From Escherichia coli (lineage in GTDB: Bacteria > Pseudomonadota > Gammaproteobacteria > Enterobacterales > Enterobacteriaceae), in the NCBI RefSeq assembly GCF_050920415.1, contig NZ_CP169309.1: DNA of 64,000 nt; one strand, written 5' to 3'. Made by a program: the position numbers. This document shows, piece by piece, positions 9,001 to 11,566 of the stretch (the first letter of the stretch is position 1; each line of letters opens with the position of its first letter).

Positions 9001-11566
9001 CGGGGTACCAGCGATTATGCTGTTTGGGACAGACGTCAACCCAATAATTTTTGCCGCAGCTGTGTCGCCAATAAAGTGCACAGTTTTGTGGTCGCTGGCA
9101 CCATTATTAGCAAGTGATACAGTGACCGTCTGCTCACCAAAGGCAACGCCTACGAGAGTGGCCTGCGCGATGCCAGACTCATTGGTATTACTCTCCCCTG
9201 GGGTGAGGGTGAGGCCTGAAGAGGCTGAGCTGAATGTTACCGGAAGATTGTTCACCTCATTGTCGAACTGGTCTTTAACCGTTGCAGTTAACGTTGCACT
9301 ATCGACGCCATTACCCGTGATCTCATCTTTTGACATCTGCAGGGCAACCTGAGCCGAGGTTTTGTCTGCCACAAATGTTACCGGCTGCGAATCACTGGCA
9401 TTGTTATTAATCAGCGTCGCGGTAACTGTATGCGTGCCCGCTTTTTTACCTTTGAGGGTGACATGCGCTTCCCCATTGGCCTGGGTGACGGTAATACCGT
9501 TATTTTCAAGGGTAAAGTTTGCCGCGACGTCTTGTGGCATGGTGAAATTCACCGCTATACCCGCCACTGGATGATTCGACGGATCTTTCACTGTAGCTGT
9601 CAGCTGCACACTGTCGCTGTTATTCGTCACCACCTGGTGAGCAGGGATGTTCAGCGTGAGCCGTGCGTTGCTGGCATCGGGAGCAATATTAACTGTCTTC
9701 GAATCGCTATTGCCGTTAGGCAGTGTGGCTTCGGCTGTATGAACACCCAAAACCGTGCCCTTAAGGGTAACTTCAGCAACACCACTGTCGTTAGTGTTGC
9801 TCGTGCTCTGACTAAGTTGAGTATCAGCCGGATCGGTACTGAAGGTGACCGGTAGATCTTTTACTACGTTATCAAAAGGATCTTTTACTGTTGCTGTCAG
9901 CGTCGTCTCATCCACGCCATTCCCAATGATTTCCACTTTCGATGTTTGCAGAACGACAATTGCGCTGTCCTTATCCGCCACGAATGTGACTGGTTGCGCA
10001 TCGCTGGCATTATTGTTACCCAGCGTTGCGGTAACCGTATGCGTGCCCGCTTTTTTGCCTTTGAGGGTGACATGCGCTTCGCCATTGGCCTGGGTAATGG
10101 CAATGCCGTTATTTTCAAGGGTAAAGTTTGCCGCGATGTTCTGAGGCATGGTGAAGTTCACCGTTATTCCCGCCACCGGATGATTCGACGGATCTTTCAC
10201 CGTCGCCGTCAGCTGCACGCTGTCACTGTTATTCGTCACCACCTGTTGAGCAGGGATATTCAGCGTGACTAGCGCGTTGCTGGCATCGGGCGCAATATTG
10301 ACTGTCTTCGTATCTCTGTTGCCGTTAAGCAGTATGGCTTCGGCTGTATGAATACCCAAAACCGTGCCCTTAAGGGTAACTTCAGCAATACCGTTCTCAT
10401 TAGTATTACGCGCGTTCAGACTCAGTTGCGTGTCTGCGGGAGAGGTGCGGAAGACTACTGACAGATTTTTAACCACGTTATCAAAAGGATCTTTCACTGT
10501 TGCTGTCAGCGTCGTCTCATCCACGCCATTCCCAATGATTTCCGCTTTCGATGTTTGTAGAACGACAACCGCTCTGTCTTTATCCGCCACAAACGTCATT
10601 GGCTGTGCATCGCTGACATTGCTGTTAGCCACACGAGCCGTGATCATATGCGTGCCCGCTAACGTGCCGGTCAGGGAGGCGATTGCAACCCCGTTACTAT
10701 CCGTCATGCCTTTTCCGCTGTTGCTAATCGAGAACCGACTTGCGACGTCGTTTGGCACAGTGAAGGTGATTTCTTTATCTTTTAGTGGGTTGCCATTTTT
10801 ATCCTGCAAGGTTGCAGTCATATGTTGCGGTGCTGTGTTGGTGACGGTGATATCACCTGAAGGCACACTGAGGGTCAGGGCAGCAGTACTTTGATCACCG
10901 ATAAAATTCACCTGTTGACTAGCCTGGGAACCAGAGCTGACAGAGGCCGTAACCGTATAATCACCATTTTTCAAACTGGTCAGCGTGGCTGTGGCGATCC
11001 CGTCGTGGCTATTCACTTCGGTTTGGCTCAGTTTCGCCTCTGTTGAATTAACATTGAAGGTGACCTTGACGTCATTGAGCAGGTTGCCTTTTGCATCCCG
11101 GACTGTAGCGGTCATTGTGGCGCTGTCATTGCCGTCAGCGACCACTTCATTTTTCGACTTCTGTAGAACAACCTGCGCGGTACTCGAGTCACCGACAAAA
11201 CTGACGATTAACGTTTGTTTCACGCCATTTTCAAGGGTGACTTCAACCGTGTTGTCTTCCTGCTTACTACTTTTCAGATCAAAAGTCGCCAGACCATTAA
11301 CATCCGTTTTTGCGGTGTTTTGATTGTTGAAGGAAGTTGCCGATCCGTTTAATACCGCAAACGTGACGGTATGATCATTGATTGGGTTGCTTCCTTCATC
11401 AGCGACATTGACCGAGACGGTATTTGCTGCATTCTCATTGGCGAGCACACCATTATTGCTGGCAGATAATGTCGCAATTTTCGCTGACTGCGGGTTGGCG
11501 TCGATGATAAATCCAGCGGTATGCAAATCTTCATTCCAGTTTTGCATTAACAGCTTCGCAGTAAGT

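What the first reader, a model, noticed from the sequence alone, without database searches (positions are those of the whole stretch)
9300..10600. Near-identical ~612-bp tandem repeats within the yeeJ adhesin
At least two consecutive ~204-aa blocks (each about two Ig-like domains) are almost identical at protein and DNA level, with a third more diverged copy. The protein (2662 aa from the trimmed start) is ~300 aa longer than the K-12 YeeJ I recall (~2358 aa). Such repeats allow recA-mediated expansion and contraction, varying adhesin stalk length, and are a common source of assembly collapse.
Basis: seen in the sequence. Interest (0 to 1): 0.45.

Follow-up and report, generated by a model that had tools for sequence, protein, structure and literature searches.

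The report
Diverged two-domain repeat in yeeJ adhesin
The long form of the E. coli surface adhesin YeeJ contains an old, 86%-identical 609-bp tandem duplication encoding two Ig-like domains; this length variant was already described in 2017, and comparison with other strains shows that the repeat has occasionally gained or lost one unit by unequal recombination.

Summary
The repeat is real, but it is overstated and already known. The window is E. coli MFDS1022581. yeeJ is window 5707-13695 (minus strand, 2662 aa, 19 Ig-like domains).

- **The array.** It spans window 9226-10660 and has period 609 bp (203 aa, two Big_1 domains), not 612 bp. It holds two full units (U1, U2) plus a 217-bp diverged partial third.
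- **Divergence.** U1 and U2 are 85.6% identical in DNA and 82.3% in protein (dS 0.43). The longest exact match is 48 bp. This is far above the 30-52% background between other Ig domains, but it is not near-identical and there is little risk of assembly collapse.
- **Prior description.** This is the long (UMN026-type) YeeJ variant of Martinez-Gil et al. 2017. It is 304 aa longer than K-12 YeeJ.
- **The K-12 gap.** The gap is 906 bp (three domains). It is out of register with the 609-bp unit and is bounded by a 23-nt microhomology.
- **Copy-number change does occur.** Among 5,426 complete genomes I found alleles with one unit fewer (2457 aa, about 85 genomes) and one unit more (2863/2870 aa, 29 genomes). 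The shorter alleles are clean U1/U2 chimeras; XL middle units are chimeras, some patchy. Switch points differ between strains, so unequal exchange has recurred.

Ordinary biology, low interest.

The parts
5707..13695 (-). yeeJ coding sequence, long allele: 2662 aa inverse autotransporter adhesin
   Evidence: ORF list. PGAP CDS WP_135275979.1 at the same coordinates. Pfam IAT_beta E=4e-113 and 16 Big_1 stretches. 97% DNA identity to K-12 yeeJ over the first 3.2 kb.
12439..13266 (-). Inverse autotransporter beta-barrel domain (aa 144-419)
   Evidence: Pfam PF11924 over profile positions 2-279 of 279.
6292..12096 (-). Run of 19 Ig-like (Big_1 / Invasin_D3) domains, aa 534-2468
   Evidence: Self-built domain HMM gives 19 domains in the window allele and 16 in K-12. 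Pfam Big_1.
9226..10660 (-). The 609-bp-period tandem array (2.35 units, 1435 bp; aa 1013-1490)
   Evidence: Self-BLASTN offset 609. Per-bin identity profile. Flank-anchored array length.
10052..10660 (-). Unit U1 (aa 1013-1215)
   Evidence: 94-97% identical to U1 of other alleles, and 85.6% to the window's own U2.
9443..10051 (-). Unit U2 (aa 1216-1418)
   Evidence: 92-94% identical to U2 (and XL U3) of other alleles. 82.3% protein identity to U1, dS 0.43, dN/dS 0.21.
9226..9442 (-). Partial, diverged third copy (217 bp, aa 1419-1490)
   Evidence: 65-70% DNA identity to the first 217 nt of the units. 79% protein identity to U2.
9581..10486 (-). The 906-bp segment absent from K-12-type yeeJ (three Ig domains, aa about 1063-1364)
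   Evidence: Protein alignment shows a 302-aa gap. BLASTN break points. Described as the 906-bp fragment of the UMN026 variant in PMC5595812.
10487..10509 (-). Left copy of the 23-nt microhomology CTGACAGCAACAGTGAAAGATCC (codes LTATVKDP) that bounds the K-12 deletion
   Evidence: The junction alignment shows the K-12 sequence switching partner inside this motif.
9581..9603 (-). Right copy of the 23-nt microhomology (22 of 23 identical)
10496..10543 (-). Longest perfectly identical stretch shared by U1 and U2 (48 bp; partner at 9887-9934)
   Evidence: Exact-run scan at offset 609.

Best explanation
This is the known long allele of the E. coli inverse autotransporter adhesin gene yeeJ. Its passenger stalk contains an old tandem duplication of a 609-bp module that encodes two Ig-like (Big_1) domains.

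The two copies have diverged to 86% DNA identity and are both kept under purifying selection. They are conserved as orthologous U1 and U2 across strains, so the duplication is not recent and has not been strongly homogenised.

The better-conserved 3' 55% of the unit (about 90% identical, with exact blocks of 30-50 bp) still supports rare unequal exchange between misaligned copies. That exchange removes or adds exactly one unit. It produces in-frame alleles with 17 or 21 Ig domains beside the common 19-domain form.

The 16-domain K-12 form arose by a separate route. It is a 906-bp deletion (or a 297-bp deletion from a 17-domain allele) between 23-nt microhomologies, at the conserved LTATVKDP-coding motif of two non-equivalent domains.

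The functional effect is inferred, not shown: a change in the length of the rod that holds the C-terminal lectin-like tip away from the outer membrane.
For: Shown here:
- The window is 100% identical to E. coli MFDS1022581, and the gene sits at the yeeJ locus.
- Repeat geometry and divergence.
- Orthologous units are more alike than paralogous ones: U1-U1 94-99%, U2-U2 92-96%, U1-U2 85-89%. dS between units is 0.43, against an allelic dS of 0.085.
- Flank-anchored array lengths fall into four classes, 529, 826, 1435 and 2044 bp. The corresponding proteins are 2358, 2457, 2660-2662 and 2863-2870 aa, with 16, 17, 19 and 21 domains, all in frame.
- Contraction. At 142 sites that distinguish U1 from U2 in strain Z1323CEC0014, the single unit of KW21 reads 67 U1 states followed by 75 U2-side calls (73 U2 states, 2 private). 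The switch lies inside a 42-bp block of perfect identity. Strain ET5 switches at unit position 87-186 instead, and SC418 and 573 switch at about 273-306.
- Expansion. In several 21-domain alleles the middle unit is a U2-5'/U1-3' chimera. The switch is at about 102-108 in N3, about 271-317 in 18KM2445 and NCTC9038, and about 456-525 in PCN033.
- Census of 5,426 complete genomes. 2,915 carry the array region and 1,278 carry the long family. Exactly 29 are 21-domain alleles. About 4 of 60 evenly sampled long-family records are 17-domain alleles. By subtraction, roughly 1,640 are K-12-type.
- The K-12 junction lies in a 23-nt microhomology and is out of register with the unit.

From the literature: two length variants differing by 906 bp (three Big domains made of repeated sequence) were reported, with no functional difference in biofilm assays (PMC5595812).
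Against: - No within-strain heterogeneity or rate was measured, so 'dynamic' rests on between-strain comparison only.
- Some 21-domain alleles (the P0083 type) have a middle unit that is almost entirely U2-like apart from a short U1-like patch at positions 86-102. A single expansion followed by gene conversion, rather than several independent expansions, could explain part of the diversity in switch points.
- The crossover of SC418 and 573 is mapped less precisely, because no very close long allele was available as a reference.
- No outgroup was obtained. A degenerate-pattern scan of species-representative genomes gave 0 hits, so the age and polarity of the duplication rest on dS and on parsimony.
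- A functional consequence of stalk length is not demonstrated. The only published test found none.
Confidence: 0.85

Rival explanations
1. The array is a static, ancient duplication. The different length classes are old allelic lineages spread by horizontal exchange, not products of repeated unequal recombination within the array.
For: The units are old (dS 0.43) and orthologous across alleles. Length variants are rare: 29 plus about 85 of 1,278. KW21, E47 and WWCOL-256 share one event.
Against: One-unit alleles show clean block-wise U1-then-U2 patterns with at least two clearly different switch points: ET5 at 87-186 against the others at 271 or beyond. Three-unit alleles show middle units with at least three different switch points. 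An unduplicated ancestor would show interspersed states instead.
Confidence: 0.08
2. One expansion event and one or two contraction events occurred. Most of the apparent diversity of switch points comes from later short-patch gene conversion between units.
For: Several 21-domain alleles share the same U1-like patch at unit positions 86-102, and G1/2, VCSW7 and GF60 show patchy patterns. Divergence is lower in the 3' part of the unit (90% against 80% identity; dS 0.29 against 0.64), which is what conversion would produce.
Against: N3, 18KM2445 and NCTC9038 show long uninterrupted runs rather than patches. ET5 and KW21 differ by a long block.
Confidence: 0.3
3. The repeat, or its copy number, is an assembly artefact.
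For: Repeats in adhesin genes are a known source of misassembly. This concern is raised in general terms in PMC6714894.
Against: The copies differ at 14% of positions and share at most 48 identical bases. The same 1435-bp array occurs in roughly 1,100 independently assembled complete genomes with conserved unit-specific differences. The reading frame is intact.
Confidence: 0.01
4. The 304-aa excess over K-12 YeeJ is simply one or two extra copies of the 203-aa unit, that is, an in-register copy-number difference.
For: The K-12 gap lies inside the array, at aa 1063-1364.
Against: The gap is 302 aa (906 bp), or 1.5 units. The junction joins the start of a B-type domain to an A-type domain at a 23-nt microhomology. 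The true one-unit-fewer allele is a different class, 2457 aa long.
Confidence: 0.02

Closest known systems
YeeJ long variant (yeeJ UMN026 type), Martinez-Gil et al. 2017, Sci Rep 7:11326 (PMC5595812)
   Same: Same locus. Same architecture: LysM-like N-terminus, IAT beta-barrel, Big_1 array, lectin-like C-terminus. Same 906-bp extra segment relative to MG1655, encoding three additional Big domains that the authors noted was 'made up of a repeated section of sequence'.
   Different: The paper describes two length variants only. Here the extra segment is resolved into a 609-bp-period array. Two further in-frame classes (2457 aa and 2863/2870 aa) are found, and the K-12 junction is mapped to a 23-nt microhomology. 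The window allele also has a divergent distal third. UMN026 itself was not fetched.
Repeat-number polymorphism in other Ig-repeat surface adhesins, recalled from general knowledge and not tested here: near-identical Ig domains of the Yersinia ruckeri invasin-like protein (mentioned in PMC6714894), staphylococcal Bap/Aap/SasG, streptococcal alpha C protein
   Same: Whole-domain modules in the stalk are gained and lost in frame by recombination between tandem repeats, which changes the reach of the adhesin.
   Different: In those proteins the repeats are typically nearly identical and vary at high frequency. Here the units are 14% diverged, share at most 48 identical bases, and length variants make up only a few percent of alleles.
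Intimin, invasin and FdeC (type Ve secretion, inverse autotransporters)
   Same: N-terminal beta-barrel (PF11924), followed by a rod of Big_1/Invasin_D3 domains with a C-terminal lectin-like tip.
   Different: These have far fewer Ig domains. NCBIfam scores against the intimin and IatC models are well below their cut-offs, so this protein is not one of those orthologues.

Membership tests
Inverse autotransporter (type Ve) adhesins | N-terminal inverse-autotransporter beta-barrel domain (Pfam PF11924) | tested here: met
   E=4.1e-113, 378 bits against a cut-off of 22.3, profile positions 2-279 of 279, aa 144-419.
Inverse autotransporter (type Ve) adhesins | C-terminal passenger built of tandem Big_1 / Invasin_D3 Ig-like domains | tested here: met
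   16 Big_1 and 17 Invasin_D3 stretches. 19 domains with a self-built HMM.
Inverse autotransporter (type Ve) adhesins | Periplasmic LysM domain before the barrel (present in YeeJ according to PMC5595812) | tested here: inconclusive
   Pfam LysM scores 14.2 bits, E=0.043, below the 20.9-bit cut-off, at aa 78-99.
Inverse autotransporter (type Ve) adhesins | C-terminal C-type lectin-like tip | tested here: inconclusive
   Invasin_D4 scores 27.4 bits against a cut-off of 27. Intimin_C scores 16 bits against a cut-off of 27, E=0.017.
yeeJ orthologue (E. coli K-12 b1978 locus) | Collinear high DNA identity to K-12 yeeJ | tested here: met
   97.4% over cds 1-3209 and 86.2% over the remaining 3.9 kb against DH1 yeeJ. 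RefSeq names the matching genes yeeJ / YeeJ-like.
yeeJ orthologue (E. coli K-12 b1978 locus) | Conserved neighbourhood: glycosyltransferase family 9, shiA and amn on one side; tRNA-Asn and mtfA on the other | tested here: met
   GT9, shiA, amn and yeeN are adjacent. tRNA-Asn and mtfA are present but displaced about 8.7 kb by an inserted islet (compared).
Long (UMN026-type) YeeJ variant | Presence of the 906-bp fragment encoding three extra Big domains relative to MG1655 | tested here: met
   302-aa / 906-bp gap in K-12 relative to the window, and 19 against 16 domains. The definition comes from PMC5595812. UMN026 itself was not fetched.
Hypervariable (contingency-type) tandem-repeat adhesin gene | Near-identical tandem units giving long tracts of perfect homology | tested here: not met
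   85.6% DNA identity and a longest exact tract of 48 bp in the window allele.
Hypervariable (contingency-type) tandem-repeat adhesin gene | Frequent copy-number change, including within a strain | not testable with these tools
   Only between-strain data are available. 29 three-unit and about 85 one-unit alleles were found among 1,278 long-family genomes. No allele with more than 3.35 units appears among the top protein or DNA hits.

The most novel reading that the evidence does not exclude
The yeeJ Ig-domain array may be a recurrently recombining length module. E. coli carries four in-frame stalk lengths (16, 17, 19 and 21 Ig domains). The 17- and 21-domain forms have each arisen more than once by unequal exchange between 14%-diverged units. 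These changes could be selected to match the adhesin's reach to the thickness of the O-antigen or capsule layer. The literature held here describes only two variants. The recurrence is fairly well supported by the data, but the adaptive part is pure conjecture.
Probability: 0.2. Interest if true: 0.35.

Novelty: already known. Interest (0 to 1): 0.15.

Why it matters
It matters little. It confirms that the window carries the previously described long YeeJ variant. It also corrects the idea that the copies are near-identical or that the K-12 difference is a simple copy-number change.

There are two modest additions. First, a four-class picture of yeeJ length (16, 17, 19 and 21 Ig domains), with mapped crossover points. 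Second, a practical note for typing schemes: PCR for 'the 906-bp fragment' would misclassify the 17- and 21-domain alleles.

The only published functional test found no difference between the 16- and 19-domain forms.

Tried and rejected
- Tandem Repeats Finder found nothing because its period limit is 500.
- Whole-protein self-BLASTP returns only the diagonal, because contained HSPs are culled. I replaced it with 100-aa chunk queries.
- An ungapped register comparison of KW21 failed because of an upstream 1-nt frameshift. I redid it with flank anchoring.
- Counting 21-domain alleles with a short U2-U3 query was unreliable. The tool chains repeated pieces, so identity and coverage were not diagnostic. 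I replaced it with a flank-anchored array query at E<=1e-300, read by record span.
- A scan of species-representative genomes with a degenerate pattern coding GVDETTLTATVKDP gave 0 hits, so no outgroup was obtained.
- A literature search for further yeeJ length variants found only the 2017 paper.
- I considered and rejected an assembly artefact, background Ig-domain similarity, and an in-register origin of the K-12 difference.

Full report
**Identity of the region.** The window is 100% identical to the chromosome of E. coli strain MFDS1022581 (NZ_CP169399.1). The only long ORF over the finding runs on the minus strand from 13770 to 5707. PGAP starts the CDS at 13695, giving 2662 aa (WP_135275979.1, 'Ig-like domain-containing protein'). 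Pfam finds an inverse-autotransporter beta-barrel (PF11924, E=4e-113, aa 144-419). It is followed by 16 Big_1 and 17 Invasin_D3 stretches and a weak Invasin_D4 / Intimin_C tail. The gene is collinear with K-12 yeeJ: 97.4% DNA identity over the first 3.2 kb and 86% over the rest. It lies beside the same glycosyltransferase-9, shiA and amn genes. So it is yeeJ.

**Checking the observation.** Self-BLASTN of the gene gives one strong off-diagonal line. Window 9230-10051 aligns with 9839-10660 at 81.8% identity over 822 nt, offset 609. The repeat finder reports a 300-nt core at 88% with spacing 609. Tandem Repeats Finder is silent only because its period limit is 500.

- Binned identity at offset 609 rises from background (about 0.3-0.45) to 0.65-0.98 between cds nt 3021 and 3860.
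- Anchoring on unique flanks gives an array of 1435 bp, window 9226-10660. U1 is 10052-10660 (aa 1013-1215), U2 is 9443-10051 (aa 1216-1418), and a 217-bp partial third copy is 9226-9442.
- U1 and U2 are 85.6% identical in DNA and 82.3% in protein. dS is 0.43 and dN/dS is 0.21.
- The partial copy is 65-70% identical to the unit starts in DNA.
- The longest perfectly identical stretch between U1 and U2 is 48 bp.
- Other Ig-domain pairs in the same protein are 30-52% identical.
- A self-built domain HMM places 19 Ig-like domains in the protein. Within the array they alternate between about 105 aa and about 100 aa, so one unit equals two domains.

The repeat is therefore real, at about the stated coordinates, and far beyond chance. 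Its period is 609 bp rather than 612, and 'near-identical' is wrong.

**Relation to K-12 YeeJ.** DH1 (K-12) YeeJ is 2358 aa. A protein alignment shows one 302-aa gap opposite window aa 1063-1364, plus two single-residue indels.

At the DNA level, K-12 nt 1-3209 match window cds 1-3209, and K-12 nt 3187-7077 match window cds 4093-7989. The two alignments overlap by 23 nt. The junction lies in the motif CTGACAGC(A/T)ACAGTGAAAGATCC, which codes LTATVKDP. This motif occurs 906 bp apart, at the start of a B-type domain and of an A-type domain (window 10487-10509 and 9581-9603).

The missing piece is 906 bp, which is three domains or 1.5 repeat units. It is out of register with the 609-bp period. 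A simple tandem duplication from the K-12 form would create a 906-bp period, which is not seen. The K-12 form is therefore best read as a deletion. This is inference by parsimony.

**What is already known.** Martinez-Gil et al. (Sci Rep 2017, PMC5595812) reported two length variants of yeeJ, MG1655-type and UMN026-type. [quoted passage not shown] The long form was enriched in pathogenic isolates, and there was no difference in biofilm assays. The finding is that variant. A further full-text search found no paper describing other length classes. Goh et al. 2019 list yeeJ only as a 7,077-bp gene.

**Does the repeat expand and contract?** Yes, on an evolutionary timescale. Flank-anchored arrays fall into four lengths:

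| Array length | Examples | Protein | Ig domains |
|---|---|---|---|
| 529 bp | K-12 | 2358 aa | 16 |
| 826 bp | SC418, 573, ET5 (intact); KW21, E47, WWCOL-256 (frameshifted) | 2457 aa | 17 |
| 1435 bp | the window, strain 121, Z1323CEC0014 | 2660-2662 aa | 19 |
| 2044 bp | G1/2, 18KM2445, PCN033 and others | 2863 or 2870 aa | 21 |

The protein database shows many 2851-2880-aa clusters named YeeJ-like and nothing longer among the top-scoring hits.

Units are orthologous across alleles: U1-U1 94-99%, U2-U2 92-96%, U1-U2 85-89%. The primary duplication therefore predates the diversification of these alleles. This agrees with dS 0.43 between units against 0.085 between alleles.

**Contraction.**
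- At the 142 sites where U1 and U2 of Z1323CEC0014 differ, the single unit of KW21 reads 67 U1 states followed by 75 U2-side calls (73 U2 states, 2 private).
- The switch falls between array positions 347 and 388, which is a 42-bp block of perfect identity in that allele.
- An unduplicated ancestor would show interspersed states. The block pattern is the signature of an unequal exchange that removed exactly 609 bp.
- ET5 switches much earlier, between unit positions 87 and 186. SC418 and 573 switch at about 273-306.
- So there have been at least two, and probably three, independent contractions.

**Expansion.**
- The predicted product of the reciprocal event is a middle unit that is U2-like at its 5' end and U1-like at its 3' end.
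- This is exactly what is seen in N3 (switch at about 102-108), 18KM2445 and NCTC9038 (about 271-317), and PCN033 (about 456-525).
- G1/2, VCSW7 and GF60 are patchier. The P0083-type alleles are almost wholly U2-like, with a shared short U1-like patch at positions 86-102.
- This indicates several expansions, gene conversion after expansion, or both.

**Frequencies.** These figures come from 5,426 complete RefSeq E. coli genomes.
- 2,915 contain the array region.
- With a flank-anchored 21-domain query at E<=1e-300, which excludes K-12-type alleles, 1,278 genomes match.
- Exactly 29 of these give a single full-length 2344-bp piece and are 21-domain alleles. No larger span appears in the top 60.
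- In an evenly spaced sample of 60, four records have the 1126-bp span of 17-domain alleles, which scales to about 85 genomes. Two are interrupted by IS elements, and the rest are 19-domain alleles.
- K-12-type alleles are about 1,640 by subtraction. In the first spread sample the counts were 33 short, about 24 long and 1 medium.
- Length variants of the 609-bp unit are thus a few percent of long-family alleles. This is rare, not hypervariable.

**Mechanism.**
- Shown: the geometry of the array, the divergence of its units, the four in-frame classes, the chimeric units and the microhomology junction.
- Inferred: the 609-bp changes arise by unequal exchange between misaligned sister or homologous copies. 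The exchange is favoured in the better-conserved 3' 55% of the unit, which is 90% identical with dS 0.29. The 5' 45% is 80% identical with dS 0.64.
- Not decided: whether the exchange is RecA-dependent crossing-over or RecA-independent replication misalignment. From general knowledge, homeologous exchange at 10-15% divergence is strongly suppressed by mismatch repair, which fits the rarity of the variants.
- Functional effect: each unit adds two Ig domains to a rod that carries a lectin-like tip, so reach from the outer membrane should change. The only published test, 16 against 19 domains, found no phenotype.

**Assembly concern.** With 14% divergence and at most 48 identical bases, the two units are unique to ordinary reads. 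The architecture recurs in roughly 1,100 complete genomes. Collapse or artefact is not a credible explanation.

**Verdict.** This is a real but diverged two-domain tandem duplication inside the already described long YeeJ variant. The claimed near-identity, the implied origin of the K-12 difference and the assembly worry are not. Novelty: already known. The 17- and 21-domain classes and their mapped crossovers are a minor extension. Interest is low.

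Noticed in passing
window 13900-22470: An islet of about 8.5 kb lies between yeeJ and tRNA-Asn (22387-22462). It carries a LysR regulator, a cysteine hydrolase, hypE and hypF paralogues, a HAD hydrolase, an MFS transporter, and two integrase remnants at 21923-22225. In the K-12, O157-like and 21-domain strains examined, tRNA-Asn sits about 310 bp upstream of yeeJ. This looks like a decayed tRNA-Asn-associated island.
   Followed up: partly
window 5707-8000 (YeeJ aa about 1900-2662): The distal third of this YeeJ is only 67-86% identical in protein to both the K-12 and the strain-121 (O157-like) alleles, whereas aa 1-1400 are 92-100% identical. This is a mosaic allele with a rare tip region. 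Only 3 of 5,199 matching records are 99% or more identical over the whole gene.
   Followed up: partly
related loci L004, L005, L006, L007, L008, L020, L025: yeeJ is often inactivated in other strains. There are frameshifts in KW21, E47, Z1323CEC0014, WWCOL-256 and NCTC9038. There are IS3/IS1203 or IS1 insertions or truncations in O157:H7 strains 1130 and Z1815, in IAI1 and in GF66.2.
   Followed up: no
window 8843-9352 (+) and 10364-10894 (+): Two antisense ORFs of 169 and 176 aa lie inside yeeJ near or within the repeat array. They are probably spurious products of the coding-strand composition. They were not examined.
   Followed up: no
E. coli genomes survey: About 2,300 genomes, including ST131 and other B2-type strains, match only about 30% of the gene at about 83% identity and are annotated as separate beta-domain and Ig-like proteins. 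This is a different or degraded locus variant that lacks the array.
   Followed up: no
window 25742-26970 and 33090-36929: An IS2 copy lies next to zinT. A patch of transposase remnants (a frameshifted transposase and an IS5 pseudogene) with three hypothetical genes lies upstream of ompC.
   Followed up: no
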